In this document: positions 10,276 through 45,644 of the stretch, one piece after another
Layout: every line of letters begins with the position of its first letter
Position numbering within the stretch: position 1 is the stretch's first letter
Notes under the pieces: generated by a model
What the model was told of the DNA's origin: nothing
The model's database searches: none
What the model saw: only the letters and a program-made list of their open reading frames with translations
Made by a program: the position numbers and the translations under genes
Assembly: GCA_035515295.1 (NCBI GenBank)
Contig: DATJBM010000034.1
Coordinates: forward strand, 5,346-69,345
Direction of reading: 5' to 3'
DNA length: 64,000 nucleotides
Origin: Casimicrobiaceae bacterium
Lineage (GTDB): Bacteria; Pseudomonadota; Gammaproteobacteria; Burkholderiales; Casimicrobiaceae

Positions 10276-10285
10276 GGTTACCGGG

Positions 10286-10651: not shown

Positions 10652-10711
10652 GGTATCCCGCCCCTTAGTCCCGCCTTTGTTCTTGCGCTTCGAGCAACGG
10701 GCCCGGCGGAC

Positions 10712-32778: not shown

Positions 32779-34092
32779 TCAGCCGGGCACCGCCCGCCGC
32801 GGCACGAACACCTCCGCGGGCGACTCCGTCCGGCGCCAGACGAGTCCCAACGTCGCGCCCATCAGCGCCCAGAAAAGGACTGCGTTCCCATAGACCGCGA
32901 GATCGTTGGTCGAGTTCTTCGTGAGCAGCGCCAGCACCAGCCCCACCGCGACGGCGGCCCAGGCCTTTGCGCGATCGCCCGCATGCCGCGCCCTCTGCCA
33001 CGCCAGGCGCACGAGTTGGTAGTGCAGCCAGAGCCACACGGCGAGACCGACCACGCCCACTTCGAGCAGCAGATCGAGGATCAGGTTATGGCCATGTGCG
33101 CCGGCCTGCGGATCGATCCGCAGCAGCGCCGCATCCTCGTCGACGCGATAGGCGCGCGGCGGGACGCTCCGCCCCAGACCGATGCCGAGCCAGGGATGCT
33201 CGCGGACGAACGCCGAATACGTCGCCCAGATCGCGGGACGCGAATCGGAGGCCATCATCTCCAGCGCTACGCTGTGGTCCAGCGGACGGGCCTCGGGCAG
33301 CCGGACGCGCGAGATGAGCTCGACGCACGCGGCCGAGACGATCAGCCCCGCCAGGGCGATCGTCAGCACGGATCTCCAGCGGAGCGCCCCGCGCAGGATC
33401 CCATAGGCCATGAGAAACCCGATGAGCGAGACGAACAGCGAAGCGATCAACGTGCGGCTCTCGCTTAAGAAACCGAGCGCGGCGAAGACGGCAACGCACA
33501 GCGCGGCGATCCACCGGGGCCAGCCCGCGCGAGAGCGGACGACGACCCGATACAGCGGCACCGCGATGAACGCCACGTAGGTGTTCGCATCGGGCGCCGC
33601 GCCGGCCCGCCACGCCAGCCACCCGAGCACGCCCGGCCGCGCCGCCGCGTCGGGATCGGTGCCCAGGATCACCGCGGCCGACATCGTGGCCACGCATAGC
33701 AGCGTCCCCGCCGTCGCGCCCGCGGCGAACGCGAGCCGGCCACCCAGCGCTTCGACGGCGATGAAGCTCACCAGAAAGATCACGAACGGATAGAATTGAT
33801 CGCTGCGAAAGCTCTGGAACGAAGCTTCGGGCAGCGCGGACCAGGCGACCGAGATCACCGCGAAGGCGAGCCATACCAGCCATTGGGCGAAGCCCGGAAC
33901 GTCCTTCCAGGGTCGAAAGCCGAACTGCAGCAGCGCGGCCGCGGCCACGAAAGCGACGAGGCTGTTGCGCAGCGCCGTAACGTGGGCCAGCGGAAGAATG
34001 GCGAGCAGCACGCCGAGGGCCACGCACAGCGCGCGCAGCGCCAGCGGGTCGCGAGCGATGCTGTGTTGGCTGGCCGTCGGGATGAGTTGCAT
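32779..34092 (-). CDS. O-antigen ligase / Wzy_C-family polytopic membrane protein
   Basis: About 10 or more hydrophobic segments and a periplasmic loop with SESRTLIASL...AGAHGHNLILDLLLEVGVVG (Wzy_C-like H-x-H-N...E-x-G). Start trimmed to ATG 34092. Confidence 0.7.
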   Translation of the reverse strand: MQLIPTASQHSIARDPLALRALCVALGVLLAILPLAHVTALRNSLVAFVAAAALLQFGFRPWKDVPGFAQWLVWLAFAVISVAWSALPEASFQSFRSDQFYPFVIFLVSFIAVEALGGRLAFAAGATAGTLLCVATMSAAVILGTDPDAAARPGVLGWLAWRAGAAPDANTYVAFIAVPLYRVVVRSRAGWPRWIAALCVAVFAALGFLSESRTLIASLFVSLIGFLMAYGILRGALRWRSVLTIALAGLIVSAACVELISRVRLPEARPLDHSVALEMMASDSRPAIWATYSAFVREHPWLGIGLGRSVPPRAYRVDEDAALLRIDPQAGAHGHNLILDLLLEVGVVGLAVWLWLHYQLVRLAWQRARHAGDRAKAWAAVAVGLVLALLTKNSTNDLAVYGNAVLFWALMGATLGLVWRRTESPAEVFVPRRAVPG

Positions 34093-34256
34093 AGCGCGCC
34101 GCTGAACACGGGCGTTGCGAAGGGCATCGCGACCTCGCGGCGGGACCTCGGACGACAAGGCTTTCGGCCGCGACGGCTGCCGCATTCTAGGAGCAATCCC
34201 TTGCCTTTACAAATCTCCGGTACGACGCGGCGCGCGTCGCGCGCCGGAGCGATTCG

Positions 34257-34880
34257 ATGACGGACTGGCCTGGCGTGCTCTGCGTCGCCACGGTCTGGTC
34301 GTACTGGATCGGCGTCGGGATCATGATCGCGCGCGTGCACCGCAAGACCCGGCATAGCCGCGGGCTGATGCCCGAGCAACCGCTCGAGCGCGCCCTGGCG
34401 CTGGTCTGGGTGCCGCTGGTCGCGGCATGGCTGACGCTGCCGTATCTGTCGCTGGTGCGCGGGCAGGCACTGCTCGCGGCGCCCGCGTTCGCCCGCGTGG
34501 CGTGGTACGCGGCGCCGCGCGCGCTCGCGGCGGTGGTGGGGCTGGCCGCGCTGCTCGCCACGAGCCTGTGCTGGTCGCGCATGGGGCTCGCCTGGCGCAT
34601 GGCGGTGAGCACGACCGAGCGCCAGCCCCTGATCAGCGACGGACCGTTTCGCTATGTGCGCCATCCGATCTACGCGCTCCAGATGCTGCTCATGGGTTGC
34701 TCGCTCGTGGTGGTGCCGACCGGCCCGATGCTCGCCGTTGCCGCGGTGCACCTCGTTCTCATCCATCTCAAGGCGCGGAACGAGGAACGGCATCTCGGGC
34801 GCGTGCACGGCGACGCCTATCGGCGCTATGCCGCGCGCACCCGACGCTTCCTGCCATGGCCGTCGGCCGAGCCGCGTTAG
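34257..34880 (+). CDS. ICMT/phospholipid-methyltransferase-family membrane methyltransferase
   Basis: TM-rich 207 aa. C-terminal signature LISDGPFRYVRHPIYALQMLL...HLKARNEERHLGRVHGDAYRRYAARTRRFLPW is typical of isoprenylcysteine carboxyl methyltransferase-like enzymes. Confidence 0.75.
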   Translation: MTDWPGVLCVATVWSYWIGVGIMIARVHRKTRHSRGLMPEQPLERALALVWVPLVAAWLTLPYLSLVRGQALLAAPAFARVAWYAAPRALAAVVGLAALLATSLCWSRMGLAWRMAVSTTERQPLISDGPFRYVRHPIYALQMLLMGCSLVVVPTGPMLAVAAVHLVLIHLKARNEERHLGRVHGDAYRRYAARTRRFLPWPSAEPR

Positions 34881-35875
34881 CACTGTGCGTCGCGGCAGCG
34901 GCGCTGCACGCCGCCGAAGCGAGGGCCGCGGATACGGAGGCGCCCTTCGCGCTCGATCGGCTCGCCGTCGACGCGAAGGTCGAGGCGCGCGTGCTGGCGC
35001 TCGATCCCGAGCGCCTGTCCGCCCGTGACGTGAGCGAGACGCTGGCGCGGGTTCCCGCGCCGAGAATCATCGCCCTCCAGGGAAGCGTGCCCCTGATCAC
35101 CATGACGCCGTTCGCCGAGTTCCTGATCGCCATGGGCTATCCCGAGGAGCGCATCCGCAACCCCCGGGACGGCGCGCTGTCGTACTCGAGCCACGTCGAC
35201 GCCCGGGCGCTCGCCGGCACGCTCGCGTGGTACGACGAGCACGAAGGTATCATGCCGATGTTGATTGGACACAGCCAAGGAGGCATGATCGCAATCAAGG
35301 TTCTGCACGAGCTCGCCGGCTCCTTCGGCGACGCGATACCGGTGTGGAATCCGTTGCGCGCCGCGGCCGAGGCGCGGACCACCATCGTCGATCCGCTCAT
35401 GGGACGGGAGCGTCCGGTGGTCGGCCTCAAGGTCCCCTACGCCGCGGCGCTCGCCACCGGCAAGCTGCCGCGACTGCTCCTGGGCCAGTGGAGCATGCTA
35501 TCCCGGCTGCAGCAGATTCCCGACACGGTCGAGGATTTCACCGGCTTCTCTTTCAGCTGGGATCCCATCGCGGGCAACTTCGGCCACGCCGAGCCCTACC
35601 GCGCGACCGGATCGGCGCGCGTGCGCAACGTGCTCCTTCCGGCGCGCGCGAGCCATATCACGCTTCCTCGCGCCGACGCGCTGGCGCGCAATCCCGCCAC
35701 CCGCGAGTGGATCGAGCGCTACTTTCCGGGCACGACGGCCGCGTTCCCGGACGTCGCGGTCGACACCGCCAACCTGCTGCACGCGGCGGACATCTGGTAC
35801 AGCGTGAAGAAACACTGGTGTATCGAAGCGCAGCGTCTGCTGCGCGCACGTCGGGGCGACGCCGGAAGGGGATGA
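34856..35875 (+). CDS. Exported alpha/beta-hydrolase (lipase-like) protein, paralogue A
   Basis: Start trimmed to ATG 34856 (25-nt overlap with the methyltransferase). Sec signal MAVGRAALALCVAAAALHAAEARA. Nucleophile elbow LIGHSQGG. Downstream conserved IPDTVEDFTGF and SHITLP are candidate Asp and His. Roughly half the positions look identical to 37251-38318 by eye. Confidence 0.7.
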   Translation: MAVGRAALALCVAAAALHAAEARAADTEAPFALDRLAVDAKVEARVLALDPERLSARDVSETLARVPAPRIIALQGSVPLITMTPFAEFLIAMGYPEERIRNPRDGALSYSSHVDARALAGTLAWYDEHEGIMPMLIGHSQGGMIAIKVLHELAGSFGDAIPVWNPLRAAAEARTTIVDPLMGRERPVVGLKVPYAAALATGKLPRLLLGQWSMLSRLQQIPDTVEDFTGFSFSWDPIAGNFGHAEPYRATGSARVRNVLLPARASHITLPRADALARNPATREWIERYFPGTTAAFPDVAVDTANLLHAADIWYSVKKHWCIEAQRLLRARRGDAGRG

Positions 35876-37254
35876 TGACCGCGCACGCGGACGGCGCGCC
35901 CCGTTCGACGGCGGCGCGGAAGGTAGGGCGCTCGACGCGGCGGAGCGATGCGCCAGCGCGCCTTGCCGGCAAGCTCAATCTGTTCCAGGCGATGGTGCTG
36001 CGCTGGCGCGAGCTCGATCCTTACGTGGCGGTGCACATGGTGGGCGTGCCCCGGCGCCTCGAAGCGGCGCGTCTCGAGGCGCACATCGGCGCGGAGCTCG
36101 AAGCGGCCGGCCTGGCGCGCATCGCGCTCGATCCGCAACGCCGGCGGTTCGAATTCCTGTCCGGTCCGGCCGCGATCGATCTCGCCGTGCGGGCGGGCGG
36201 AAACGACCCCCAGTCGGTGGCGCGTGCGGAAATCGAGCGTCAGCTCAACGGCGCTTTCCCGAGCGACGGCGCGTTCACGCCGTTCCGGTTTTTCGCGATC
36301 GACGCCGGCGCGACGTTCGAGCTGGGCATCGCCTACGACCATTTCATCGCCGGCGGCGACTCGATCGCGGTGCTGCTCGAGCGGCTCGCCGCCGGCTATG
36401 GCGCCGACGGGGCGGTCGGCACATGGTCGCCGCGACGCTATCCGCGCACCTACGGCCGCCTTTTCCGGCGCGACCTCGGCTATGCGCTGCGCGGACTGCT
36501 GCGCCTGCCGGCGATGGCGGCAAGCTGCCGTCGATCGGTACGCGCCCCGTGCCGCGGCGATCGCTCCGCGGGCACCGGCTTCGTATCCTTCCGCGCGTCG
36601 GACCACGCGCTCGCCGCGCTGCTGAGCACCGCGAAGTCCTGGCGGGTGACGATGAACGATCTGGTGCTGGCGATGCTCCTGCGGGCGCTGGCCGAGGTCG
36701 TTCCGCGGGGCAAGCGTCCCGACCGCAGTGAGCTCGGGGTGGCGTCGATCGTGAACCTGCGCGCGGAATTCGAGTCCGACGCCCATGACACGTTCGGCTT
36801 GTTCCTCGCCTCGCTGCGCATAGCGCATCCGGTTCCCGGGGGCATCGCGCTCGAGCGACTGGCCGCCGAAGTCCATGCCGAGACGCAACGTATCAAGCGC
36901 GAGAAGCTCTATCTGCAGACCCTGGTCGCGCTCGGGTGGACCGGCCTCGCCTGGCGCTTTCTTTCTCCCGACCGGCGACGGCGGTTTCTCGCCAAGCATT
37001 ACCCGCTATGGGCGGGCGTGACGGGACTCAACATCGACGCGCTGTGGTCGGAAGCGACATTGCGCGATGCGCCGATACGCTACACGCGGGCCGTGCCGAC
37101 GGGACCGCTCGCGCCGCTGGCGGTCGCCATCACGACCTTCCGCGGCGCGATGCAGATCGGCGTGTCGTTCCGTCAGGCCGACGTCCCAGGCGACACCGCC
37201 ACGCGCATCGGCCGCGCGTTGCTCGCGCAGATCGAGACGCTGGCATCGAGATGA
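35872..37254 (+). CDS. Stand-alone condensation-domain-like acyltransferase
   Basis: Start ATG 35872 overlaps the preceding stop (ATGA) and sits behind GGAAGGGG. About 460 aa. N-terminal LNLFQAMVLRWRELDPY resembles C-domain motif C1. YDHFIAGGDSIAVLL aligns with the HHxxxDG catalytic motif (second His kept, Asp replaced by Gly). Confidence 0.6.
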   Translation: MMTAHADGAPRSTAARKVGRSTRRSDAPARLAGKLNLFQAMVLRWRELDPYVAVHMVGVPRRLEAARLEAHIGAELEAAGLARIALDPQRRRFEFLSGPAAIDLAVRAGGNDPQSVARAEIERQLNGAFPSDGAFTPFRFFAIDAGATFELGIAYDHFIAGGDSIAVLLERLAAGYGADGAVGTWSPRRYPRTYGRLFRRDLGYALRGLLRLPAMAASCRRSVRAPCRGDRSAGTGFVSFRASDHALAALLSTAKSWRVTMNDLVLAMLLRALAEVVPRGKRPDRSELGVASIVNLRAEFESDAHDTFGLFLASLRIAHPVPGGIALERLAAEVHAETQRIKREKLYLQTLVALGWTGLAWRFLSPDRRRRFLAKHYPLWAGVTGLNIDALWSEATLRDAPIRYTRAVPTGPLAPLAVAITTFRGAMQIGVSFRQADVPGDTATRIGRALLAQIETLASR

Positions 37255-38318
37255 GCGTACTGCGTATCGCCTCAGTCGTGGCGCTGGTCGCGCTCCTCGC
37301 GGCTTGCGCCACGGCGCCTTATCAGGCGCCGGGGAAAGTGGGCCCGCCACCGCAAGCCGGCGCGGTGCTCAGATCGATCCCGCTCGATCCCGCACTGGAG
37401 GAGCGCATTCTCGCGCTGGATCCCGATCACGTCATGGCGGCCGACGTGCGCGATACGCTCGCCCAAGTGCCGGCGCCGCGCATCGTGCTGATCCACGGCG
37501 GCATCTATCCCGTCTATCTCGCCATGAGCTCCTTCGCCGAATTCCTGATCGGCATGGGTTATCCGGAGAAGGAGCTGCGCCGCCCCGACAACGTTCTCGA
37601 CAGCTTCTATTCGTACAGTCCCTATCAGGACAGCCGCGAGCTCGCGGGAATCGTCGCCTGGTACTACGAGCGCGACGGGATGCGGCCGATGATCATCGGC
37701 CACAGTCAGGGCGGGGTGCAGGCGGTCAAGGTGCTCGACGAGCTGGCCGGAATCTTCGGCGAGAAGATCGACGTGTGGAACCCCGTCACCGACGAGTCCG
37801 AGCATCGCACGACGATCGTCGATCCGCTGACCGGCCGAGTCCGTCCGGTCGTGGGGTTGAGCGTGTGCTACGTGTCCGCCGTCGGCGCGGGCGGCGCGGC
37901 GCTGCTGTTGCCAAACCAGTGGAGCATGGTGCATCGGCTGCACACCATCCCCGACAGCGTCGACGATTTCACGGGGTTTTCCATCAGCGGCGACCTGGTC
38001 GCGCTAACCTTCGCCGGCGCGAAGGGCGCCGCCGACTACCATCCCAACGGAACAGCGAAAGTGCGCAACGTCTTCCTGCCGGCGCAGTACAACCACGTCG
38101 TCATGCCCGCGACGCGGGATCTCGCTCGGCGCGAGGCGATGCGCGCATGGATCGACGCTTACGTTCCGGGGAAGCCGGGCCAGGCGGAAACCATGCCGAA
38201 GGGGGACAACGACGGCGCGCTGTGGGCCGCGGACGTGTGGTACAGCATCAAGAAGCACTGGTGCCTGGAGCTGCAACGGCTCATTCACGCCCGGCGCGCC
38301 GCGCTCGTGGCGCAGTGA
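37251..38318 (+). CDS. Lipoprotein alpha/beta-hydrolase (lipase-like), paralogue B
   Basis: Start ATG 37251 overlaps the preceding stop (ATGA). Lipobox in MSVLRIASVVALVALLAAC. IIGHSQGG elbow, IPDSVDDFTGF, NHVVMP, and a C-terminal WYSIKKHWCLELQRL shared with paralogue A. Confidence 0.7.
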   Translation: MSVLRIASVVALVALLAACATAPYQAPGKVGPPPQAGAVLRSIPLDPALEERILALDPDHVMAADVRDTLAQVPAPRIVLIHGGIYPVYLAMSSFAEFLIGMGYPEKELRRPDNVLDSFYSYSPYQDSRELAGIVAWYYERDGMRPMIIGHSQGGVQAVKVLDELAGIFGEKIDVWNPVTDESEHRTTIVDPLTGRVRPVVGLSVCYVSAVGAGGAALLLPNQWSMVHRLHTIPDSVDDFTGFSISGDLVALTFAGAKGAADYHPNGTAKVRNVFLPAQYNHVVMPATRDLARREAMRAWIDAYVPGKPGQAETMPKGDNDGALWAADVWYSIKKHWCLELQRLIHARRAALVAQ

Positions 38319-38469
38319 TCGGCGCCTCGCGTAAGAATCCGAGCGTTGCCGGACCCGGCTTCCCCATAGGATAATGAGTGGTTTTTGCGCCAAGGCGCGC
38401 CTTGTTGGAAGGCGCCCGCGCAAGACTCCGGCGGCCCGCGGGCCGCGACCACTCACCGATTCTTCGAGC

Positions 38470-39225
38470 ATGCCAGGCGCCCTCGCCGGAAAAGTCGCGC
38501 TCGTCACCGGCGCCTCGCGCGGCATCGGACGCGCCATCGCGCTGAAGCTCGCCACCGCGGGCTGCGACGTCGCCGTCAACTACTACAACAGCGCGGACGA
38601 GGCCGAGGCGGTGTGCGCGGAGATCCGGGCGCTGGGGCGGCGCGCGTGCGCCCTGCAGGCGAGCGTCGGCATTCCGGAGAGCGTGGACGAGATGTTCGGC
38701 GAGCTCGGCAGGCGCTTCGATCGCCTCGACATCGTGGTGAGCAACGCCGCGAGCGGCGTGCTCAAGGCGGCCATGGAGATGACGCTCAAGCACTGGCGCT
38801 GGTGCCTCGAGACCAATGCCTTCGCGCTCGACCTTCTCGCTCAGCGCGCCGTGCCGATGATGCCGGCCGGCGGACGCATCATTGCGCTCTCGAGCCTCGG
38901 CGCGTCGCGCGCCATGCCTCACTACGGCTTCATCGGCGCCTCCAAGGCCGCGCTGGAATCGCTGGTGCGCACGCTCGCGCAGGAGCTGGGGCCGAAGCAC
39001 ATCCGCGTCAACACGGTGAGCGCCGGGGTCGTGGACACCGATGCGCTGCGCTACTTTCCCAATCGCGAGGAGCTGCTCGCCGACTTCGCGCGGCGGACGC
39101 CGGCCGGGCCCCGGCTCACGCCGGAGGACGTCGCCGGCGCGGTCTATCTGCTGTGCCTGCCCGAAGCGGCCATGATCAGCGGGCACACGCTGGTCGTCGA
39201 CGGCGGCTTCGCCATCTCCGGCTGA
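38470..39225 (+). CDS. SDR-type enoyl-ACP reductase resembling Bacillus FabL
   Basis: [85 protein letters not shown]. These blocks parallel my recollection of B. subtilis FabL (YgaA). Start trimmed to ATG 38470. Confidence 0.65.
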   Translation: [251 protein letters not shown]

Positions 39226-39240
39226 CTGGGGACGGCGCCG

Positions 39241-39993
39241 ATGGACACGCAACTCACCGGCAAAGTGGCGCTCGTCACCGGGGGCAGCCGCGGGATCGGC
39301 CGCGCGATCGTCGAGCTCTTCGCCGCCGAAGGCGCCGACGTGACGTTCTTCTACCGCGACAACGCCGCCGCGGCGGAGGCGGTCGTCGCGAAGGGCGCGA
39401 CGGCGGGACAGCGCATCGCGGCGGAGAAAGTCGACGTGCGCGATGCCGCGGCGTGTTCCGCCGCGGTGGAGCGCGTCGCCGAGCGCGCGGGGCGCATCGA
39501 CATTCTGGTCAACAACGCCGGGATCATCCGCGACAATCCGCTCGCCGCCTTCTCCGACGACGACGTGCGCAGTGTCCTCGACACCAACGTCGGCGGCGTG
39601 TTCAACGTCACCCGCCCGGTCGTGCCGCACATGATCGTGCAGCGCTCGGGCAAGATCATCAACCTCTCCTCGGTGGCCGGCGAGAAGGGCGGCCGCGGCC
39701 AGACCAACTATGCCGCCAGCAAAGGGGCGATCAACGCGTTCACCCGCGCCCTCGCCGTCGAGCTCGCGCCGCGTCGGATCACGGTGAACTGCGTGGCGCC
39801 GGGCGTCATCGACACCGAGATGTCGCAAGGCGTGCGGGAGGCGGCCGGCGACGAGGTGAAGGCGCGCATCCTCCTCCGGCGCTACGGCCGTCCCGAGGAG
39901 GTCGCCTACGCGGTCTGGTTCCTCGCCTCGCCCTACGCGGATTACGTCACGGGCCAGGTCTTCAGCATCGATGGCGGCTTCAAAATGGAGTGA
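39241..39993 (+). CDS. 3-oxoacyl-ACP reductase (FabG-like SDR)
   Basis: ALVTGGSRGIGRAI, NNAGI, SSVAG...NYAASKGA (Ser-Tyr-Lys), SIDGGFKM; 250 aa. Confidence 0.85.
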   Translation: MDTQLTGKVALVTGGSRGIGRAIVELFAAEGADVTFFYRDNAAAAEAVVAKGATAGQRIAAEKVDVRDAAACSAAVERVAERAGRIDILVNNAGIIRDNPLAAFSDDDVRSVLDTNVGGVFNVTRPVVPHMIVQRSGKIINLSSVAGEKGGRGQTNYAASKGAINAFTRALAVELAPRRITVNCVAPGVIDTEMSQGVREAAGDEVKARILLRRYGRPEEVAYAVWFLASPYADYVTGQVFSIDGGFKME

Positions 39994-39999
39994 ACTCTC

Positions 40000-40428
40000 A
40001 TGGCGGAAAGCGAAATCAGCAAAGAACAAATCGAGGCGGTCTTCCCCAGGGTCGCCGAGACCATGGCCGACGCGCTCGGCTGCGACCTCGAGCAGGTGAA
40101 GCCCGACGTGTCGCTGATCGAGGGGCTGGACGCCGAGTCGATCGACTTTCTCGACATGGTGTTCCGGCTCGAGCGCGCGTTCAAGATCAAGATTCCGCGC
40201 GGCAAGATCATCGAGAACGCGCGCGGCGACATGCCCGAGTCGGAATTCGAGCAGAAGGGCATGCTCACCGAGGCGGGACTCGCCCAGCTCAAGCGCTACC
40301 TCTCCGAAGTCCCGGCCGAGCGCTTCAAGAATCCGATGAAGGTGGCGGACATTCCGCGATTGTTCACCCCCGTGACGTTCTGCAAGCTGGTGATCCGCGC
40401 CCAGCGCGAGGCGGCGCCGGCGAGCTGA
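40000..40428 (+). CDS. Acyl carrier protein, atypically long (142 aa)
   Basis: Carrier-protein core ...LIEGLDAESIDFLDMVFRLERAF (Ser in an E-S-I-D context) followed by a tail of about 60 aa. Sits between the KR and DH genes. Confidence 0.65.
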   Translation: MAESEISKEQIEAVFPRVAETMADALGCDLEQVKPDVSLIEGLDAESIDFLDMVFRLERAFKIKIPRGKIIENARGDMPESEFEQKGMLTEAGLAQLKRYLSEVPAERFKNPMKVADIPRLFTPVTFCKLVIRAQREAAPAS

Positions 40429-40450
40429 TGGCGGCTTGCTTCGGCAATTC

Positions 40451-41281
40451 ATGACCGAGCACTTCGCGGCGTTCTCGTTCGTGGACCGGATCACGAGCTT
40501 CGAGCCGGGAGTGGCGGCGCGCGGAAGCTTCGCGGTGCCAGGAAGTCTCGCGTCATTTCCGGCCTGCCTGGTCGCCGAGGCGGTGGGCCAGCTCGCGGCA
40601 TGGACGGCGATGGACGCGATCGGCTTCCGGGGACGGCCCGTGGCCGCGCTCGCCACCGAGACGGTGTTCCATCGCGACGTCGCGCCCGGCTCGCGCCTCG
40701 ATCTCTCGGTCGAGGTCGAGAGCTGCGACGACGAGGCGATCGCCTACGGCGGCCGCGCCGAGGTCGACGGCGTTGCAGTGATCGAGCTCAAGCACTGTCT
40801 GGGCCCGATGCTGCCGGTCGCCGATTTCGACGCGCCGGAAGCGCTGCGCGATCGCCTTCGACTGCTGCGCAGCGAGGGCGCGCCGGCAGGCCGGTTTCAC
40901 GGCGTCGCGCTACCCGAGCTCGCGCCGCTGGAAGGCGAGCCGGGCCGTTCCGCCCGTGCGCTGCTGAGCGTGCCGGAGGCGGCGCCGTTCTTCGCCGATC
41001 ACTTCCCGCGTCGCCCGGTGTTTCCGGCCACGCTGCTGCTCGACAGCCAGATCCGGCTTGCCCTGGACCTCGCCCGCGCCGCGGTCGGCAGCGCCGGACT
41101 CGTGGCGCGGCGCATGACGCACGTGAAGATGCGCTCGTTCATCGCGCCCGGTTCGGCCGTGACACTGGGCGCGGAGCTGGCCGCGCCGAACGACTTCAGC
41201 GACGCGGTGCGGCTCTCGGCGGCGATCGACGGGCGCACGGTCGCCACGGCGCGGCTCAACCTCGGCGCGAAGGACGGCTGA
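40451..41281 (+). CDS. Double hot-dog FabA/FabZ-like dehydratase
   Basis: C-terminal half has PFFADHFPRRPVFPATLLLDSQ (FabZ/FabA His motif). N-terminal half is a degenerate hot-dog (FVDRITSFEPG...). ATG 40451 preferred over the TTG at 40436. Confidence 0.65.
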   Translation: MTEHFAAFSFVDRITSFEPGVAARGSFAVPGSLASFPACLVAEAVGQLAAWTAMDAIGFRGRPVAALATETVFHRDVAPGSRLDLSVEVESCDDEAIAYGGRAEVDGVAVIELKHCLGPMLPVADFDAPEALRDRLRLLRSEGAPAGRFHGVALPELAPLEGEPGRSARALLSVPEAAPFFADHFPRRPVFPATLLLDSQIRLALDLARAAVGSAGLVARRMTHVKMRSFIAPGSAVTLGAELAAPNDFSDAVRLSAAIDGRTVATARLNLGAKDG

Positions 41282-42574
41282 ATGCCGCGGCGGCGCGTTG
41301 CGATCACGGGGCTCGGCCTGGTCACGCCGGTCGGTAACGACGTGGCGACCACGTGGGCCGCCTTGCGCGCGGGTCGCAGCGGCGGTGCGCCGATCACGCT
41401 CTTCGACGCGTCGGGCTTTCCCGTGCGCATCGCCGCCGAAGTAAAGGGATTCGACGCCGGCGCCGCGATCGGCGACCGCAAGCTTCTCAAGTTCGCCAAC
41501 CGCTCGCACGGCTTCGCGCTCGCCGCTGCGGAGCAGGCGTTCGACGACGCCGGCATCCGGCCGGCTTCAGCCACCGCGACGCGCTGGGGCTGCGCGGTGG
41601 GCACCGGCATGATGGGTGTGGATTTCGCAGAGCTCGTCGCCGTTCACCACCACAGTGCCGCGAACGGCGAGCTCGACGCGCTGCGGCTCCTCGACGACGC
41701 CTCCGCCAACAATCCCGTGGTGTTCTGCCGCAGCCAGTCGACAACAGGGCTGTCGCTGCTCACGAAACGCTACAACCTGCGCGGCTACGCCACGTCGGTT
41801 CACACGGCGTGCGCCTCCGGCGGTCAGGCGATCGGCACGGCGCTCAAGCTGATTCGCCGTGGCGCGGTCGATTGCGCGCTCGCGGGCGGCTTCGACTCGA
41901 TGGTGAACCCCGTAGGCATCGCCGGCTTCTGCCTGCTCTCGGCGCTCTCGGCCGACAACGATACGCCCGAGCGCGCGAGCCGTCCGTTCGACGCGACGCG
42001 CAACGGCTTCCTGCTCGGCGAGGGCGCGGGCTTCCTGGTTCTCGAGGAATGGGAATCCGCGCGGCGGCGCGGCGCGCGCATCTACGCCGAGCTCGCCGGC
42101 GACGGCAACTCGCTGTCGAGCTATCGCATCACCGATTCGCCGCCCGACGGCGACGGGCCGATCCAGTCGATGCGCCAGGCGCTCGGCGACGCCGGCGCGG
42201 CGCTCGAGGACGTCGACTACATCAACGCCCACGGCACCTCCACGCTCATGAACGACCGAAGCGAGAGCGTGGCGATTCACGCGGTGTTCGGGCCACGGAC
42301 CAGGCAGGTCGCGGTCAGCTCGACCAAGAGCTCGATGGGGCACCTGATCGCCGCCGCCGGCGCGGTCGAGGTCGCCGTGTGCGCGCTCGCGATCCGCGAC
42401 GGCGAGCTTCCGGTCAACGCCAACGTGCGCGACCCCGATCCCGACTGCGATCTCGCGCTCGTGCGCGACGCGTCGCTCAAGCGTCGAGTGCGGGTGACGC
42501 TCTCCAACTCTTTCGGCTTCGGCGGCTCGAACAGCTGCGTCGCGCTGCGCGCGCCGGATCAGGTCGCAGGCTGA
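41282..42574 (+). CDS. Beta-ketoacyl-ACP synthase (FabF-like, intact Cys-His-His)
   Basis: VAITGLGLVTPVG, VHTACASGGQAIG (Cys), NAHGTSTLMND (His), KSSMGHLIAAAG (His), NSFGFGGSNSCV. The ATG directly abuts the DH stop (TGAATG). Confidence 0.88.
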   Translation: MPRRRVAITGLGLVTPVGNDVATTWAALRAGRSGGAPITLFDASGFPVRIAAEVKGFDAGAAIGDRKLLKFANRSHGFALAAAEQAFDDAGIRPASATATRWGCAVGTGMMGVDFAELVAVHHHSAANGELDALRLLDDASANNPVVFCRSQSTTGLSLLTKRYNLRGYATSVHTACASGGQAIGTALKLIRRGAVDCALAGGFDSMVNPVGIAGFCLLSALSADNDTPERASRPFDATRNGFLLGEGAGFLVLEEWESARRRGARIYAELAGDGNSLSSYRITDSPPDGDGPIQSMRQALGDAGAALEDVDYINAHGTSTLMNDRSESVAIHAVFGPRTRQVAVSSTKSSMGHLIAAAGAVEVAVCALAIRDGELPVNANVRDPDPDCDLALVRDASLKRRVRVTLSNSFGFGGSNSCVALRAPDQVAG

Positions 42575-42587
42575 GCGAACGGCAGGC

Positions 42588-43865
42588 ATGGCGAGGCCGC
42601 GCGTCTTCATCACCGGCACCGGCGCGGTGTGCGCAGCGGGCCGCGATCCGGCCGCCATTCTGGAAGCCGTGCGCGCCGGCCGCTCGGCCATCGCCCCGAT
42701 TCGCCAGTGGGACGCCTCGAGCTGGCCGCGGAGGATGGCCGGCGAAGTCGGCGATTTCAACGCCCGCGAGCTGGTCGAAGACCGCAAGATGCACAAGCTC
42801 ATCCGGCGCACCGACTTCTTCGGACTGTACGCTTCGGGCCGCGCGGTGCAGGCCTCCGGTATCGCGACGCATCGCGACACGCTCGAAAGCGCCGCGGCGG
42901 CCCACTACAGCGACCGCACGGGCGTCTACGTCGGCTCCGGCGGCGGCAACTACGACAGCCAGTACGACTACTTTCCGCTGCTGACCGAGGCCGACGAAGC
43001 TCTGCCCGCGTTCGGCCGCGAGCTCGCCAACACCGTGAACCCGATGTGGCTGCTGCGCACGCTGCCGAACAACGTGCTCGGCCACATCGGCATCCGCCAC
43101 GGCTTCAAGGGCTCGAACGCGTGCATCACGAATCACAGCGTCGGCGGGACGCTGGCGGTGATCGAGGCGACCGAAGCGCTGCGCAACGGCGAGGCGGATC
43201 GGGCGCTCGCGGTAGGACACGACGCGCCGATCGAGCCGCAGATGGTGCTCTACTACCACGATGTCGGCCTGCTCGCGCGGGAGGCGATCCGTCCGTTCGA
43301 TGCGCGCCGCGACGGCAGCCTGTTCGGCGAGGGCGCGGCGGCATTGGCGCTGGAGACCGAAGCCTCGGCGCGGGAGCGCGGCGCGACCGCCATCGGCGAA
43401 ATCCTCGGCGGAGGCTCGGCGACCGATGCGCTCGGACTGCTCGCCATCCGCGACGACGGCGAAGCGCTGGCGCGCGCGATCGAGCTCGCGCTCGAGGATG
43501 CCGGGATCAAGCCTGGTGACGTGGGCGTGATCGCCGCGCACGGCAACGGCACGCCGCAATCCGACGCCTCCGAGGCCGCGGCCATCCGTCGGGTGTTCGG
43601 GAACGCCGCGCCGCCGGCGACCGCGTTCAAGTGGGCATTCGGACACCTCATTGCCGCCGCGGGGATCCTCGACGCCGTGCTTGTGCTCCATGCACTGCGC
43701 GACCGCGTCGTCCCGGGCGTTGCGACCTACGGCCAAGTCGATCCGGACTGCGCCGGCGCGCGCGTGTCGGCCGAGCCACAGGCAGCTCGCAGCGCTGTGG
43801 CGCTCGTCCTCTGCCGCGGCTTTGCCGGGACCAACGCGGCGGTCATCCTCCACGCTATTCGGTAG
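42588..43865 (+). CDS. KS-like partner lacking the active-site Cys (chain-length-factor type)
   Basis: Thiolase fold (VFITGTGAVCAAG..., AAHGNGTPQSD, KWAFGHLIAAAG), but the position aligned with TACASGG reads TNHSVGG, i.e. His in place of Cys. Confidence 0.7.
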   Translation: MARPRVFITGTGAVCAAGRDPAAILEAVRAGRSAIAPIRQWDASSWPRRMAGEVGDFNARELVEDRKMHKLIRRTDFFGLYASGRAVQASGIATHRDTLESAAAAHYSDRTGVYVGSGGGNYDSQYDYFPLLTEADEALPAFGRELANTVNPMWLLRTLPNNVLGHIGIRHGFKGSNACITNHSVGGTLAVIEATEALRNGEADRALAVGHDAPIEPQMVLYYHDVGLLAREAIRPFDARRDGSLFGEGAAALALETEASARERGATAIGEILGGGSATDALGLLAIRDDGEALARAIELALEDAGIKPGDVGVIAAHGNGTPQSDASEAAAIRRVFGNAAPPATAFKWAFGHLIAAAGILDAVLVLHALRDRVVPGVATYGQVDPDCAGARVSAEPQAARSAVALVLCRGFAGTNAAVILHAIR

Positions 43866-43872
43866 ACGCGCC

Positions 43873-44289
43873 ATGCAGCCGACCGCGCCGGCTTCGGCAA
43901 ACGCGATGCGCTGCGGGATCGACACGGTCGAGATCGCGCGCCTCGAGCGGCTGCTCGCGGAGAATCCACGCGGCGACCTGCTGCGATTGTTCTCGCCGCA
44001 GGAAATCGCCGACAGCGGCGACGGACCCGGACGCGCGGCGAGCCTCGCCGCGCGCTTTGCCGCCAAGGAGGCGTGCGTGAAGCTCTTCCCCCGCGAAGCC
44101 GCGCTGGGCGAGATCGAGCCGGGAGACTTTTCCGTCGCCCGCGATGCCTATGGCGCGCCGCAGGCCGCAGTGTCCGAGCGCGCCGAGGCCGTTCTCGCCC
44201 GCAACGGCATCCGTTCGATCGCGCTCTCGCTCGCGCACGACCGCACGAGCGCCTGCGCGGTCGCCCTGGCGGTTGCATCGACACGCTGA
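43873..44289 (+). CDS. AcpS-type 4'-phosphopantetheinyl transferase
   Basis: RCGIDTVEIARLERLL...RFAAKEACVKL...SLAHDRTSACAVAL, about 138 aa. Start at ATG 43873 (or 43906). Confidence 0.75.
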   Translation: MQPTAPASANAMRCGIDTVEIARLERLLAENPRGDLLRLFSPQEIADSGDGPGRAASLAARFAAKEACVKLFPREAALGEIEPGDFSVARDAYGAPQAAVSERAEAVLARNGIRSIALSLAHDRTSACAVALAVASTR

Positions 44290-45644
44290 TGGCGACTCGT
44301 CCTGCCGGAGGCACGACGAAGGATGGCGTCGGGGCGACGCTGGGGATACGCGGGCCAGCCCTTACCTACACGGGCGACCCGTTCCGCCACGGGCTGGACC
44401 GCACCCTGCGCTACGAGCCCGACGCGATCATCGTGGTCGAGGACGGCAGGATCGTTCGCTTCGGTCCCGCGGCCGACGTCGCACCGTCGCTACCCGCGGG
44501 CACGACCGTGGACCGCTATGGCGAGGACACGCTCGTCATGCCGGGATTCATCGACTGTCACGTTCACTTCCCGCAGCTCCAGATCATCGGCGCCGGCGGC
44601 GAGCAGCTCCTCGACTGGCTCGCCAAATACACCTTCGCGGCCGAGGAGCGCTTTGCCGACCCCGAACACGCCCGGGAGGTCGCGCGCTTCTTCTTGAGCG
44701 AGAGCCTGCGCAACGGCATCACCACGTCGGCCGTGTACTGCACGGTACACGCGACGTCGGTCGACGCGCTGTTCGAGGAGGCCCTCGGGCTGGGCTTGCG
44801 CACGATCGCCGGCAAGGTCCTGATGGACCGCAACGCGCCGCAAGCTCTGCTCGATACCGCGCAAGCCGGCTACGACGAGTCCAGGGCGCTGATCGAACGC
44901 TGGCACGGGCGCGGGCGGCTCAGGTACGCGATCACGCCGCGCTTCGCCGCGACCAGCAGCCCGGCGCAGCTCGAAGCCGCGGGGGCGCTTCGCGCCGAGC
45001 ATCCCGACGCCTTCCTGCAGTCGCACGTCGCGGAGAACCGACGCGAGATCGAATGGATCCGCGAGCTCTATCCGGAGCGCAGGCACTACCTCGACGTCTA
45101 CGATCACTACGGGCTTCTGGGTCCGCGCGCGATCTACGGTCACGGCATATGGCTGTCCGAGGAGGAGCTCAGGCGCTGTCACGACACGGGTACCGCGATC
45201 GCCCACTGCCCGACGTCGAACTTCTTCCTCGGCAGCGGATGCCTCGATCTGCGCCGGATGCTGTCCGGCGAGCGGCCGCTGCGCGTCGGACTGGCGACCG
45301 ACCTCGGCGCCGGCACGTCGTTCTCCATGCTGCGAACCATGAGCGAAGCCTACAAGGCCGCGCAGCTGCACGGCTACGCGCTTCGCCCCGGGCACGCCTT
45401 CTATCTCGCGACCCGCGGCAGCGCGCACGCGCTCTATGTCGACGACACCATCGGCAGCATCGCGCCCGGCATGGAGGCCGATCTCGTCGTCCTCGATCTG
45501 AGGTCCACGCCGCTCATCGAGTACCGGATGCGGCACGCGGCCGATCTCGAGGAGGCGCTCGGCGTGCAGATGGCGCTCGGCGACGACCGGGCGGTCCGGG
45601 CGACGTACGCCGGCGGCTGCAAACTCTACGACCGAGCCGCCTAG
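44289..45644 (+). CDS. guaD: Guanine deaminase
   Basis: MPGFIDCHVHFPQLQIIGAGGEQLLDWLAKYTF, AGKVLMDRNAP, YAITPRFAATSS, SHVAEN, AHCPTSNFFLGSG, GLATDLGAGTSFSML. Collinear with my recollection of E. coli GuaD. The ATG overlaps the acpS-like stop (TGATG). Confidence 0.88.
   Translation: MATRPAGGTTKDGVGATLGIRGPALTYTGDPFRHGLDRTLRYEPDAIIVVEDGRIVRFGPAADVAPSLPAGTTVDRYGEDTLVMPGFIDCHVHFPQLQIIGAGGEQLLDWLAKYTFAAEERFADPEHAREVARFFLSESLRNGITTSAVYCTVHATSVDALFEEALGLGLRTIAGKVLMDRNAPQALLDTAQAGYDESRALIERWHGRGRLRYAITPRFAATSSPAQLEAAGALRAEHPDAFLQSHVAENRREIEWIRELYPERRHYLDVYDHYGLLGPRAIYGHGIWLSEEELRRCHDTGTAIAHCPTSNFFLGSGCLDLRRMLSGERPLRVGLATDLGAGTSFSMLRTMSEAYKAAQLHGYALRPGHAFYLATRGSAHALYVDDTIGSIAPGMEADLVVLDLRSTPLIEYRMRHAADLEEALGVQMALGDDRAVRATYAGGCKLYDRAA

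What the first reader, a model, noticed from the sequence alone, without database searches (positions are those of the whole stretch)
34856..38318. Two paralogous exported GHSQGG proteins bracket the condensation enzyme, all translationally coupled
Seen: genes 34856-35875 and 37251-38318 are collinear paralogues; roughly half of the aligned residues look identical by eye (not computed). Shared blocks are VPAPRI, FAEFLI-MGYPE, LAG--AWY-E, IGHSQGG, RTTIVDPL-G--RPVVGL, QWSM, IPD-V-DFTGF, VRNV-LPA, WYS-KKHWC-E-QRL. One carries a Sec signal peptide and the other a lipobox (LLAAC), so both are extracytoplasmic. The gene between them encodes a cytoplasmic-looking C-domain protein joined to both by ATGA overlaps.

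Established: G-H-S-Q-G-G is the nucleophile elbow of Burkholderia-type family I.2 lipases, and Ser...Asp...His order is the alpha/beta-hydrolase triad order. Candidate Asp sits in IPD-V-DF and candidate His in SHITLP / NHVVMP.

Inference: these could be a soluble and a membrane-anchored acyl-hydrolase or transacylase pair acting on the cluster's lipid product, or on host or envelope lipids. I do not recognise the conserved C-terminal WYSxKKHWCxExQRL module from any family I know.
Basis: partly seen in the sequence, partly recalled or inferred. Interest (0 to 1): 0.7.

Follow-up and report, generated by a model that had tools for sequence, protein, structure and literature searches.

The report
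Paired exported serine hydrolases, orphan family
Two related, exported enzymes of a previously unnamed alpha/beta-hydrolase family flank a condensation-type enzyme inside a conserved fatty-acid-building gene cluster of uncultured soil bacteria, and probably trim or move acyl or methyl-ester groups on an envelope lipid whose identity is still unknown.

Summary
Genes 34856-35875 (A) and 37251-38318 (B) are paralogues: 51% identity over 315 residues, E 9e-108. Both are joined to the middle gene by real ATGA overlaps.

A carries a signal-peptide-like N-terminus. B has a lipobox that recurs in 100 of 112 orthologues.

AlphaFold and Foldseek place B in the alpha/beta-hydrolase fold. Its nearest solved structures are minimal lipases. 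Burkholderia family I.2 lipases share only the GHSQGG elbow.

The likely triad is Ser152, Asp248 and His282 in B (Ser140, Asp236, His267 in A).

The family has no Pfam, NCBIfam or PDB relative and is small: 577 representatives among 1.84 billion.

The triplet recurs with fixed positions. All 46 copies upstream of C are A-type and all 58 downstream copies are B-type. It sits in a conserved cluster: ICMT-like methyltransferase, A, C, B, FabL, FabG, ACP, dehydratase, two ketosynthases and AcpS.

In every relative whose held DNA reaches past the second ketosynthase, an LpxL-like lipid A-type acyltransferase completes the cluster. That domain is missing from this window.

Most likely A and B are extracytoplasmic tailoring hydrolases or transacylases for this pathway's lipid. 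Substrate and chemistry are untested. This is an uncharacterised variant of a known enzyme kind, of moderate interest.

The parts
34257..34880 (+). ICMT/PEMT-family membrane methyltransferase (207 aa). It overlaps the start of gene A by 25 nt.
   Evidence: Pfam ICMT 36.3 bits (cutoff 24) and PEMT 30.3 bits (cutoff 25). NCBIfam isoprenylcysteine methyltransferase 55 bits, below its cutoff of 160; LmtA 12.5 bits only. It sits directly upstream of A in about 55 loci and downstream of B in the Nitrospirota-type loci. A clean in-frame ICMT-A fusion, P0239, exists.
34856..35875 (+). Hydrolase A (339 aa). Exported or membrane-anchored alpha/beta-hydrolase paralogue. Ser140 is at 35273, Asp236 at 35561, His267 at 35654. 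The C-terminal motif is at 35795-35839.
   Evidence: 51% identical to B. N-terminal hydrophobic signal without a true lipobox. Every copy found upstream of C is A-type, 46 of 46.
35872..37254 (+). Standalone condensation-fold protein C (460 aa). It has no signal peptide. The variant active-site motif YDHFIAGGDS is at 36334-36363.
   Evidence: AF2 pLDDT 86.9. Foldseek E 1e-18 to 1e-22 to NRPS C, E and Cy domains; best match AzeD 8s6l with TM 0.76/0.80. Sub-threshold Pfam PapA_C and Condensation hits and a sub-threshold NCBIfam WS/DGAT hit. D156-H157-x3-G-G-D163-S164 is invariant in 35 orthologues.
37251..38318 (+). Hydrolase B (355 aa). Lipoprotein alpha/beta-hydrolase paralogue with lipobox LLAAC (Cys19). 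Ser152 is at 37704, Asp248 at 37992, His282 at 38094. The C-terminal motif is at 38238-38282.
   Evidence: AF2 pLDDT 88.5, pTM 0.87. Foldseek to minimal lipases and type II thioesterases. Lipobox in 100 of 112 orthologues. Ser, Asp and His conserved in 271, 265 and 267 of 272. Every copy found downstream of C is B-type, 58 of 58.
38374..39225 (+). Enoyl-ACP reductase of FabL type. The true start is probably the ATG at 38470.
   Evidence: NCBIfam FabL equivalog 347.9 bits, above its cutoff of 328. The orthologue in L081 is 251 aa. A promoter-like site lies at 38346-38375.
39241..39993 (+). 3-oxoacyl-ACP reductase (FabG-like).
   Evidence: Pfam adh_short and adh_short_C2. NCBIfam FabG subfamily model NF009466 258.3 bits, above its cutoff of 222.
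40000..40428 (+). Dedicated acyl carrier protein (142 aa).
   Evidence: Pfam PP-binding. NCBIfam ACP models match but stay below their cutoffs.
40436..41281 (+). Double hot-dog dehydratase (FabA/FabZ/ApeI-like).
   Evidence: Pfam FabA, two matched stretches. The orthologue also hits ApeI-like.
41282..42574 (+). Ketosynthase 1 (FabF-like).
   Evidence: Pfam ketoacyl-synt N and C domains. NCBIfam FabF subfamily model 415 bits, above its cutoff of 387.
42588..43865 (+). Ketosynthase 2 (divergent FabF-like).
   Evidence: Pfam ketoacyl-synt N and C domains. 34% identical to KS1.
43873..44289 (+). Holo-ACP synthase (AcpS). In the related loci whose held DNA reaches this position the gene continues into an LpxL-like (Lip_A_acyltrans) domain. 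That domain is absent here.
   Evidence: NCBIfam and TIGR pantetheinyl transferase domain 59.3 bits, above its cutoff of 45. L081 encodes a 415-aa ACPS + Lip_A_acyltrans fusion. tblastn finds the fusion in about 45 loci, but only its residues 11-127 in the window. blastn shows a clean gap of about 860 bp.
32779..34185 (-). Divergently transcribed Wzy_C / O-antigen-ligase-like membrane protein. It is a neighbour only in the closest relatives and is not part of the conserved core.
   Evidence: Pfam Wzy_C 55 bits. Present next to the cluster in L001-L005, L007, L008 and L019 only.

Best explanation
A and B are catalytically competent serine hydrolases of an unnamed, narrowly distributed branch of the alpha/beta-hydrolase superfamily. 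The triad is Ser, then the Asp after beta7, then the His after beta8.

Both work outside the cytoplasm. A is released into the periplasm or held at the inner membrane by its N-terminal signal or anchor. B is a lipoprotein. The pair arose by an old duplication and has since specialised: several positions differ in a fixed way, including ones next to the oxyanion hole and the catalytic His.

They belong to one conserved pathway:
- A dedicated type II fatty acid synthase builds an acyl-ACP. It comprises two ketosynthases, FabG, a dehydratase, FabL, an ACP and AcpS.
- In relatives, an LpxL-family acyltransferase passes that chain to a lipid A-like or other glycolipid acceptor on the cytoplasmic face.
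- The standalone condensation-fold protein C and the ICMT-type methyltransferase tailor the product.
- The product is exported by a housekeeping route, since no exporter is encoded in the cluster.
- A and B then finish or remodel it in the envelope by ester chemistry, either deacylation or transacylation. This would resemble the split between cytosolic PapA3 and periplasmic Chp2 in mycobacterial acyltrehalose synthesis.

**Shown:** paralogy, fold, conserved triad residues, export signals, synteny and translational coupling.

**Inferred:** triad geometry, localisation, the acceptor lipid, and hydrolysis versus transfer.
For: - **Paralogy:** 51% identity, E 9e-108.
- **Fold:** the AF2 model of B has pLDDT 88.5. 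Foldseek matches alpha/beta hydrolases only: Lip_vut1 6nkc at E 1.5e-5, B. subtilis LipA, RedJ and other type II thioesterases.
- **Register:** hhalign places IVLIHGG on the LipA oxyanion strand and GHSQGG on AHSMGG.
- **Triad:** Ser152, Asp248 and His282 follow strands 147-151, 237-245 and 270-276. They are conserved in 271, 265 and 267 of 272 full-length members.
- **Export:** lipobox in 100 of 112 B-type proteins. A-type proteins have a hydrophobic N-terminus without a lipobox. An ICMT-A fusion keeps that hydrophobic segment as a linker.
- **Synteny:** ICMT-A-C-B-FabL-FabG-ACP-DH-KS-KS is found in about 50 of 80 species-level loci. Positions are fixed: 46 of 46 A-type upstream of C, 58 of 58 B-type downstream. 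The ATGA overlap at C-B is the commonest spacing.
- **Spread across phyla:** the block with an LpxL-like gene and ICMT recurs in MAGs labelled Nitrospirota and Chloroflexota.
- **LpxL-like partner:** an AcpS+Lip_A_acyltrans fusion follows KS2 in about 45 loci.
- **Complete synthase:** FabL scores above its NCBIfam cutoff, so a full elongation cycle is encoded.
- **Specialisation:** fixed A/B differences at B positions 84 (G/S), 280 (Y/A), 221-222 and 325.
- **Precedent:** cytosolic acylation followed by periplasmic transesterification by an alpha/beta hydrolase is described for Chp2 in PMC4183827 (abstract listed).
Against: - No biochemical or genetic data exist for any member. All hits are 'hypothetical', and every genome in the 80 loci listed is a MAG.
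- Model coordinates could not be inspected. The triad geometry therefore rests on secondary-structure order and conservation.
- The structural matches are weak when normalised to the query (TM about 0.3). About half of the protein is family-specific.
- B-type copies also occur alone, next to unrelated genes such as peptidases and transporters, in genomes that also carry the cluster. The family is thus not strictly tied to the cluster.
- A is absent from about 9 loci that keep C and B. The bracket is therefore dispensable.
- The LpxL-like domain is missing from this window. It also scores below every lipid A acyltransferase cutoff, so the lipid A link is only an analogy.
- The best structural match of C is a dehydratase, AzeD, not an acyltransferase.
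Confidence: 0.55

Rival explanations
1. A and B are carboxyl (or phosphate) methyl-esterases. They remove, outside the cytoplasm, the methyl group that the co-encoded ICMT-type methyltransferase adds inside. This would be a protect-and-deprotect or switch logic, as in BioC/BioH, ICMT/ICME and LCMT-1/PME-1, where the esterase is an alpha/beta hydrolase.
For: - The ICMT-like gene is always adjacent to the hydrolase block. It overlaps A by 25 nt here and lies directly after B in the Nitrospirota-type loci.
- An in-frame ICMT-A fusion exists.
- ICMT-family enzymes methylate carboxylates or, in LmtA, the lipid A 1-phosphate (family description).
- That methyl-esterases paired with methyltransferases are typically alpha/beta hydrolases is established knowledge, not tested here.
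Against: - Two or three specialised paralogues per genome are hard to explain by removal of a single methyl group.
- Stand-alone B-type copies lack an adjacent methyltransferase.
- The best structural neighbours are lipases and thioesterases rather than methyl-esterases.
- Nothing shows what the methyltransferase methylates.
Confidence: 0.2
2. A and B are general envelope lipases or esterases that act on bulk phospholipids, lipoproteins or environmental esters. Their position in the cluster would reflect co-regulation rather than a shared substrate.
For: - Stand-alone B-type lipoprotein copies sit in unrelated neighbourhoods and keep the elbow, the lipobox and the C-terminal motif.
- The nearest solved structures are true lipases.
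Against: - Position and order around C are fixed across proteobacterial, Nitrospirota-labelled and Chloroflexota-labelled genomes.
- ATGA coupling to C is conserved.
- In the cases traced (L030, L035, L058, L064), the genome with a stand-alone copy also carries the cluster or its C/A homologues.
- In the best 80 loci the family is confined to MAG lineages in which the cluster also occurs. It does not show the broad spread expected of a housekeeping lipase.
Confidence: 0.15
3. A and B are Burkholderia-type family I.2 secreted lipases.
For: The GHSQGG elbow is identical and the Ser-Asp-His order is the same.
Against: - A profile search of all PDB chains returned no lipase at E<=10.
- hhalign aligns only 14 columns around the elbow.
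- There are no I.2 structures among the top 50 Foldseek hits.
- No Pfam lipase family is hit.
- There is no Lif foldase gene, and no pair of conserved cysteines.
- B is a lipoprotein, not a protein secreted by the type II system.
Confidence: 0.03

Closest known systems
Minimal alpha/beta-hydrolase lipases: Bacillus subtilis LipA (family I.4, PDB 1t2n/3qmm) and rumen metagenome Lip_vut1 (6nkc)
   Same: - Best Foldseek matches, E 1.5e-5 to 5e-4, with target-normalised TM 0.55-0.65.
- The same strand order.
- An HG-type oxyanion strand and a small-x-Ser-x-Gly-Gly elbow that align in register.
- Asp after beta7 and His after beta8.
   Different: - Only 13-15% identity, with query-normalised TM about 0.3.
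- No Pfam Lipase_2 hit.
- A and B are twice as long. They have an N-terminal helical extension, a conserved beta-hairpin insertion of about 40 residues (VWNP...RTTIVDPLTGxxRPVVGL) and a 32-residue terminal helix.
- A and B are a lipoprotein and a periplasmic protein of Gram-negative bacteria, not secreted enzymes of Firmicutes.
Burkholderia/Pseudomonas family I.1/I.2 lipases
   Same: An identical GHSQGG nucleophile elbow and the same catalytic residue order.
   Different: - No detectable homology beyond 14 residues.
- No Lif chaperone gene.
- No conserved disulfide pair, and no evidence for the Ca2+ site.
- Different cellular destination.
Mycobacterial Chp1/Chp2 with PapA acyltransferases (sulfolipid-1 and polyacyltrehalose pathways)
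   Same: The same division of labour: a cytosolic condensation-fold acyltransferase (PapA) together with a membrane-associated alpha/beta-hydrolase that finishes the lipid by transesterification. For Chp2 this happens on the periplasmic face (PMC4183827; PMC3318749, abstracts listed). In both cases the two genes are clustered with the lipid-synthesis genes.
   Different: - Chp proteins are cutinase-like and unrelated in sequence.
- Those clusters use type I PKS, FadD and an MmpL exporter.
- This cluster has a type II synthase, an LpxL-like acyltransferase and an ICMT-like methyltransferase, and no exporter.
- The similarity is functional analogy only and is untested.
Rhizobial acpXL-fabZXL-fabF2XL-fabF1XL-lpxXL cluster (very-long-chain fatty acid of lipid A)
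   Same: A dedicated ACP, dehydratase and two FabF-like ketosynthases in the same order, together with an LpxL-family acyltransferase that uses the dedicated acyl-ACP (established knowledge; cluster discussed in PMC5613085, listed). No exporter gene is needed, because the product rides LPS export.
   Different: - The rhizobial cluster has no exported alpha/beta hydrolases, no condensation-fold protein and no ICMT-like methyltransferase.
- Here the LpxL-like domain is fused to AcpS and scores below all lipid A acyltransferase cutoffs.
- That domain is absent from this window.
AzeD and other standalone condensation-family proteins (for the bracketed gene C)
   Same: C is a discrete protein with a CAT/condensation fold. 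AzeD (8s6l) is its best structural match, TM 0.76/0.80. In both, the first His of HHxxxDG is replaced (PHxxxDG in AzeD, bioRxiv 10.64898/2026.07.17.738954; DHxxxGGD here).
   Different: - 17% identity.
- In C the Asp is shifted by two residues.
- AzeD dehydrates an NRPS-derived alkaloid. C sits in a fatty-acid cluster with no NRPS.
- Weak sequence hits point instead to PapA5 and WS/DGAT O-acyltransferases.

Membership tests
Alpha/beta-hydrolase superfamily | The alpha/beta-hydrolase fold: a central, mostly parallel beta-sheet flanked by helices. | tested here: met
   AF2 model of B has pLDDT 88.5 and pTM 0.87. All significant Foldseek PDB matches are alpha/beta hydrolases.
Alpha/beta-hydrolase superfamily | Nucleophile elbow Sm-x-Nu-x-Sm-Sm directly after strand beta5. 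| tested here: met
   G150-H-S152-Q-G-G follows strand 147-151. Ser is conserved in 271 of 272.
Alpha/beta-hydrolase superfamily | The acid after beta7 and the His after beta8, forming a triad with the nucleophile. | tested here: inconclusive
   Asp248 and His282 follow strands 237-245 and 270-276. They are conserved in 265 and 267 of 272.
Bacterial lipase family I.2 (Burkholderia cepacia/glumae type) | Homology over the whole catalytic domain to I.1/I.2 lipases. | tested here: not met
   A family profile against all PDB chains returned no lipase at E<=10. None appears in the Foldseek top 50.
Bacterial lipase family I.2 (Burkholderia cepacia/glumae type) | GHSQGG elbow. | tested here: met
   Present in A and B.
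Bacterial lipase family I.2 (Burkholderia cepacia/glumae type) | A lipase-specific foldase (Lif) gene adjacent, and a conserved disulfide. | tested here: not met
   All genes from 32779 to 46660 were assigned and none is Lif-like. The mature proteins have a single conserved Cys, C338, in 231 of 272.
Pfam alpha/beta-hydrolase families (Hydrolase_4, Lipase_2, Abhydrolase_1 and others) | A score at or above the family's gathering threshold. | tested here: not met
   The only hit is Hydrolase_4 at 13.1 bits against a cutoff of 27, for A. B has no hit. No precomputed Pfam domain other than those of fused or mis-called neighbouring genes is attached to any of 240 homologues.
Bacterial lipoproteins (for B) | A signal peptide ending in the lipobox [LVI][ASTVI][GAS]C. 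| tested here: met
   LLAAC with Cys19. A lipobox is present in 100 of 112 B-type orthologues and in 16 of 17 stand-alone copies by regular-expression match; some of those 16 matches lie at implausible positions. Lipidation itself cannot be tested with these tools.
NRPS condensation / CAT-fold acyltransferase superfamily (for C) | The two-lobed CAT-like fold. | tested here: met
   328 Foldseek matches with E<=0.001. The listed top 50 are almost all C, E, Cy or X domains, and the best has TM 0.76/0.80.
NRPS condensation / CAT-fold acyltransferase superfamily (for C) | The HHxxxDG catalytic motif. | tested here: inconclusive
   The invariant motif is D156-H157-F-I-A-G-G-D163-S. The second (catalytic) His is kept, the first His is Asp, and the Asp is shifted by two residues. 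Pfam Condensation scores 20.2 bits (cutoff 30.6) and PapA_C 26.7 bits (cutoff 30), both below threshold.
Lipid A VLCFA-type cluster (acpXL/lpxXL logic) | A dedicated ACP, dehydratase and two ketosynthases, plus an LpxL-family acyltransferase in the same cluster. | tested here: inconclusive
   The synthase genes are present in the window. The LpxL-family domain is present in about 45 related loci but absent from the window. It scores below every NCBIfam lipid A acyltransferase cutoff. The acceptor lipid cannot be tested here.

The most novel reading that the evidence does not exclude
The cluster encodes an undescribed envelope-lipid pathway of uncultured soil Betaproteobacteria and Nitrospirota.
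- A dedicated synthase makes a special acyl chain.
- An AcpS-fused LpxL-like enzyme places that chain on lipid A or a related glycolipid.
- A standalone condensation-fold enzyme and an ICMT-type methyltransferase tailor it.
- After export, a two-step relay of novel alpha/beta-hydrolase-fold enzymes remodels it: A near the inner membrane, then lipoprotein B.

A and B would then be alpha/beta-hydrolase counterparts of the beta-barrel lipid A remodelling enzymes PagP, PagL and LpxR.
Probability: 0.2. Interest if true: 0.7.

Novelty: new variant of a known kind. Interest (0 to 1): 0.45.

Why it matters
This family of several thousand metagenomic proteins has no Pfam, NCBIfam or PDB relative and no name. 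It now has a fold, a probable catalytic triad, a cellular location and a fixed genomic partner set.

The surrounding cluster is conserved in abundant but uncultured soil lineages (Casimicrobiaceae and Nitrospirota-labelled MAGs). It consists of a dedicated fatty acid synthase, an LpxL-like acyltransferase, a standalone condensation-fold protein, an ICMT-type methyltransferase and the exported hydrolases. It is likely to specify an unknown outer-envelope lipid.

Identifying that lipid would extend the repertoire of lipid A or glycolipid remodelling chemistry. It would also assign a function to a standalone condensation-fold clade.

The result is not a surprise in kind. Exported serine hydrolases in lipid clusters have precedents.

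Tried and rejected
1. **Burkholderia family I.2 lipase membership.** Rejected. The similarity is confined to the elbow.
2. **Apparent gene fusions as evidence for coupling or topology.** P0069, P0284 and P0319 look like B or A joined to an SDR. P0316 and P0358 look like C joined to B. All contain long stretches of out-of-frame, Arg/Pro/Ala-rich text. They are frameshift or gene-calling artefacts and were discarded. Only the ICMT-A fusion P0239 reads cleanly, and even that could be a single-base error.
3. **ORF 44144-45982 (612 aa) as a cluster member.** Rejected. It has no Pfam hit. The real genes there are AcpS (43873-44289) and an amidohydrolase in the 44073-45644 frame, starting at about 44289.
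4. **Annotated relatives in plasmids.** tblastn found none.
5. **Literature searches.** Searches for GHSQGG, for Casimicrobiaceae lipid clusters, for ICMT plus ACP plus ketosynthase clusters, and for acpXL/lpxXL in Betaproteobacteria found nothing on this family or cluster.
6. **The look-up of encoding contigs for the window's own B protein.** It was not on record. A close relative was used instead.
7. **A conserved disulfide or catalytic role for the Cys in KKHWC.** Rejected as essential. It is Ala, Val or Thr in about 30 of 272 members.
8. **The neighbouring Wzy_C gene as a core member.** Rejected. It is adjacent only in the closest relatives.

Full report
**1. What is in the sequence**

The window is GC-rich, about 0.68. 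The exact A and B proteins are on record from a Casimicrobiaceae (Burkholderiales) metagenome-assembled genome.

Gene A (34856-35875, 339 aa) and gene B (37251-38318, 355 aa) translate cleanly. They align over 315 residues at 51% identity, E 9e-108. Each is the only other copy in the window.

The two ATGA overlaps are also real. ATG 35872-35874 overlaps TGA 35873-35875. ATG 37251-37253 overlaps TGA 37252-37254.

The start of the middle gene is secure. No alternative start codon occurs before residue 41, while residues 33-39 are invariant among orthologues. A GGAAGGGG ribosome-binding sequence precedes 35872.

The upstream gene (34257-34880) overlaps A by 25 nt, so four genes are coupled, not three.

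**2. What A and B are**

Neither protein reaches any Pfam or NCBIfam threshold. None of 240 listed homologues carries a precomputed Pfam domain other than that of a fused or mis-called neighbouring gene. A profile of 40 family members finds nothing meaningful among all PDB sequences.

An exhaustive profile search of 1.84 billion representative proteins returns only 577 hits at E<=0.001, many of them fragments. This is a compact family. It is not detectably linked by sequence to any curated alpha/beta-hydrolase family or solved structure.

AlphaFold2 on that alignment gives a confident model of B, pLDDT 88.5 and pTM 0.87. Foldseek against the PDB matches alpha/beta hydrolases only. The best are the minimal lipases Lip_vut1 and B. 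subtilis LipA, followed by type II thioesterases such as RedJ and assorted carboxylesterases. The matches cover the small targets well (TM 0.55-0.65) but only about a third of the query. About half of the protein is therefore family-specific.

In the model Ser152 follows strand 147-151, Asp248 follows strand 237-245 and His282 follows strand 270-276. These are the canonical positions of nucleophile, acid and base. Across 272 full-length members they are conserved 271, 265 and 267 times. The equivalents in A are Ser140, Asp236 and His267.

I could not read model coordinates, so the triad geometry is inferred.

The C-terminal WYSxKKHWCxExQRL block belongs to a single 32-residue helix (323-354, pLDDT 95-99). 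It follows the His loop, where the canonical fold has its last helix. I read it as an elongated terminal helix of the fold rather than a separate module (inference). Its Cys is replaced in about 30 of 272 members, so it is not essential.

**3. Relation to Burkholderia lipases**

The GHSQGG elbow is shared, but nothing else is.
- hhalign aligns 14 columns.
- No I.2 structure is among the top 50 structural matches.
- There is no Lif foldase gene.
- There is no conserved disulfide pair.

The family should not be filed under I.2.

**4. Localisation**

B begins with a lipobox (LLAAC). 100 of 112 B-type orthologues have one. A-type proteins have a hydrophobic N-terminal segment without a lipobox.

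A cleanly reading fusion protein, P0239, joins the ICMT-like membrane methyltransferase to A through that hydrophobic segment. This fits A lying across the membrane from the methyltransferase's C-terminus.

Other apparent fusions (B-SDR, C-B) are frameshift artefacts and were discarded.

**5. Recurrence and context**

A scan of one genome per species found 393 loci that encode a relative. The best 80 are all MAGs. Most are labelled Casimicrobiaceae or uncultured Betaproteobacteria. Five are labelled Nitrospirota and one Chloroflexota.

The order ICMT-A-C-B-FabL-FabG-ACP-dehydratase-KS-KS is kept in about 50 of these loci. Position is strictly tied to subtype. All 46 copies upstream of C are A-type and all 58 downstream copies are B-type. 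The duplication is therefore old and the arrangement is under selection.

The ATGA overlap between C and B is the commonest junction.

About nine loci have C-B without A. Twenty-three B-type copies stand alone, but about six of these sit on contigs cut short or where C was not detected. About 17 lie in genuinely unrelated neighbourhoods such as peptidases, an MFS transporter and a solute-binding protein. In the four cases traced, the genome also carries the cluster or its C/A homologues. These copies keep the GHSQGG (GHSLGG in one) elbow and the C-terminal motif, and most keep a lipobox.

A and B differ at near-fixed positions. These include residue 84 next to the oxyanion-hole glycine (Gly in B, Ser in A) and residue 280, two residues before the catalytic His (Tyr in B, Ala in A). 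This indicates functional specialisation.

**6. The rest of the cluster**

- The gene after B scores above the NCBIfam cutoff for the enoyl-ACP reductase FabL.
- It is followed by FabG, a 142-aa ACP, a double hot-dog dehydratase, two FabF-like ketosynthases and a holo-ACP synthase.
- Together these form a complete, self-priming type II elongation system.
- In every related betaproteobacterial locus long enough to show it, the AcpS gene continues into an LpxL-family (Lip_A_acyltrans) domain.
- In the Nitrospirota-type loci a separate LpxL-like gene sits directly before A or after the methyltransferase, and the ICMT-like gene follows B.
- The cross-phylum core is therefore: synthase, LpxL-like acyltransferase, C, B and ICMT-like methyltransferase, with A usually present.
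- The LpxL-like domain scores below every specific lipid A acyltransferase model, so its acceptor is unknown.
- In this window the domain is cleanly missing. About 860 bp are absent between the AcpS domain and the next gene.
- No transporter is encoded in the cluster.

**7. The middle gene**

C is a standalone condensation-fold protein: pLDDT 86.9 and Foldseek E down to 6.5e-22. Its best match is AzeD, a discrete condensation-family dehydratase in which the first His of HHxxxDG is also replaced (bioRxiv 10.64898/2026.07.17.738954).

C has an invariant DHxxxGGDS motif. It also has weak sequence hits to PapA5 and WS/DGAT O-acyltransferases. Acyl transfer is the simplest guess in a fatty-acid cluster, but dehydration or another reaction is not excluded.

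**8. How it most likely works**

*Shown:*
- two specialised paralogues of an orphan alpha/beta-hydrolase family with conserved Ser, Asp and His;
- export signals;
- tight and ancient linkage to a condensation-fold protein, an ICMT-type methyltransferase, a dedicated synthase and, in relatives, an LpxL-like acyltransferase.

*Inferred:*
- the synthase makes a dedicated acyl-ACP;
- the LpxL-like enzyme and C attach or tailor the chain on a lipid acceptor at the cytoplasmic face;
- the methyltransferase methylates a carboxylate or phosphate;
- the product leaves by a housekeeping route, which for an LpxL-type product would be the LPS route;
- A and B then carry out ester chemistry in the envelope.

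The closest functional precedent is the mycobacterial pairing of cytosolic PapA3 with periplasmic Chp2, which transesterifies diacyltrehalose (PMC4183827).

The main rival is that A and B are methyl-esterases that reverse the ICMT-type methylation. A weaker rival is that they are general envelope lipases. None of these can be separated without experiments.

**9. Verdict**

The pair is a new, uncharacterised variant within a well-known enzyme superfamily. It is embedded in a conserved but unstudied lipid cluster of uncultured bacteria.

It is worth experimental follow-up, above all heterologous expression with lipidomics. It does not overturn expectations. I score interest at 0.45.

Noticed in passing
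window 43873-44300 (compare L081 16647-17910): Every related locus long enough to show it encodes an AcpS + LpxL-like (Lip_A_acyltrans) fusion after the second ketosynthase. In this window only the AcpS part remains. About 860 bp are cleanly missing, and the amidohydrolase gene starts at the AcpS stop. This could be a real domain loss, a relocation or an assembly artefact; which one is unknown.
   Followed up: partly
L022, L023, L026, L027, L030, L031, L034, L035, L054, L055, L057, L058, L064, L073, L075, L080 (match at about 10000-11000 in most): A third, stand-alone B-like lipoprotein subtype with the C-terminal motif WFSIKKHWC. It sits in two recurrent but unrelated neighbourhoods. One has an MFS transporter and a solute-binding protein. 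The other has S9, M3 and S10 peptidases on the opposite strand. In the four cases traced (L030, L035, L058, L064) the genome also carries the cluster or its C/A homologues.
   Followed up: partly
P0239 (557 aa, metagenomic): A cleanly reading in-frame fusion of the ICMT-like methyltransferase and hydrolase A, joined through A's hydrophobic N-terminal segment. In the window the same two genes overlap by 25 nt in different frames, so a single-base error could also produce this fusion.
   Followed up: partly
P0069, P0284, P0316, P0319, P0358 (metagenomic database entries): Long 'fusion' proteins that hit the family are frameshifted read-throughs, with out-of-frame Arg/Pro/Ala-rich text between real domains. 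They should not be used as evidence of domain architecture.
   Followed up: yes
window 32779-34185 (- strand): A Wzy_C / O-antigen-ligase-like membrane protein is transcribed divergently from the cluster. It is adjacent only in the closest Casimicrobiaceae relatives. A promoter-like site on the - strand lies at 34212-34184.
   Followed up: partly
window 38374-38470: The longest FabL ORF starts at 38374. Domain matches begin at residue 40 and the orthologue is 251 aa, so the ATG at 38470 is the likelier start. That leaves a gap of about 150 nt after B, containing a sigma-70-like site at 38346-38375. The synthase genes may therefore have their own promoter.
   Followed up: partly
window 45641-46660 (- strand): An exported protein with two retropepsin-like aspartyl protease domains (Asp_protease_2 / gag-asp_proteas) lies just beyond the cluster. 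The same gene lies two genes beyond the amidohydrolase in the close relative L081.
   Followed up: no
L067 11741-12232; L056 11737-12225: In the Nitrospirota-type version of the cluster a small GNAT acetyltransferase gene follows the ICMT-like gene. These loci also carry three to four ketosynthase genes and no FabL-like reductase was seen in the stretch examined. The lipid made there may therefore differ.
   Followed up: no
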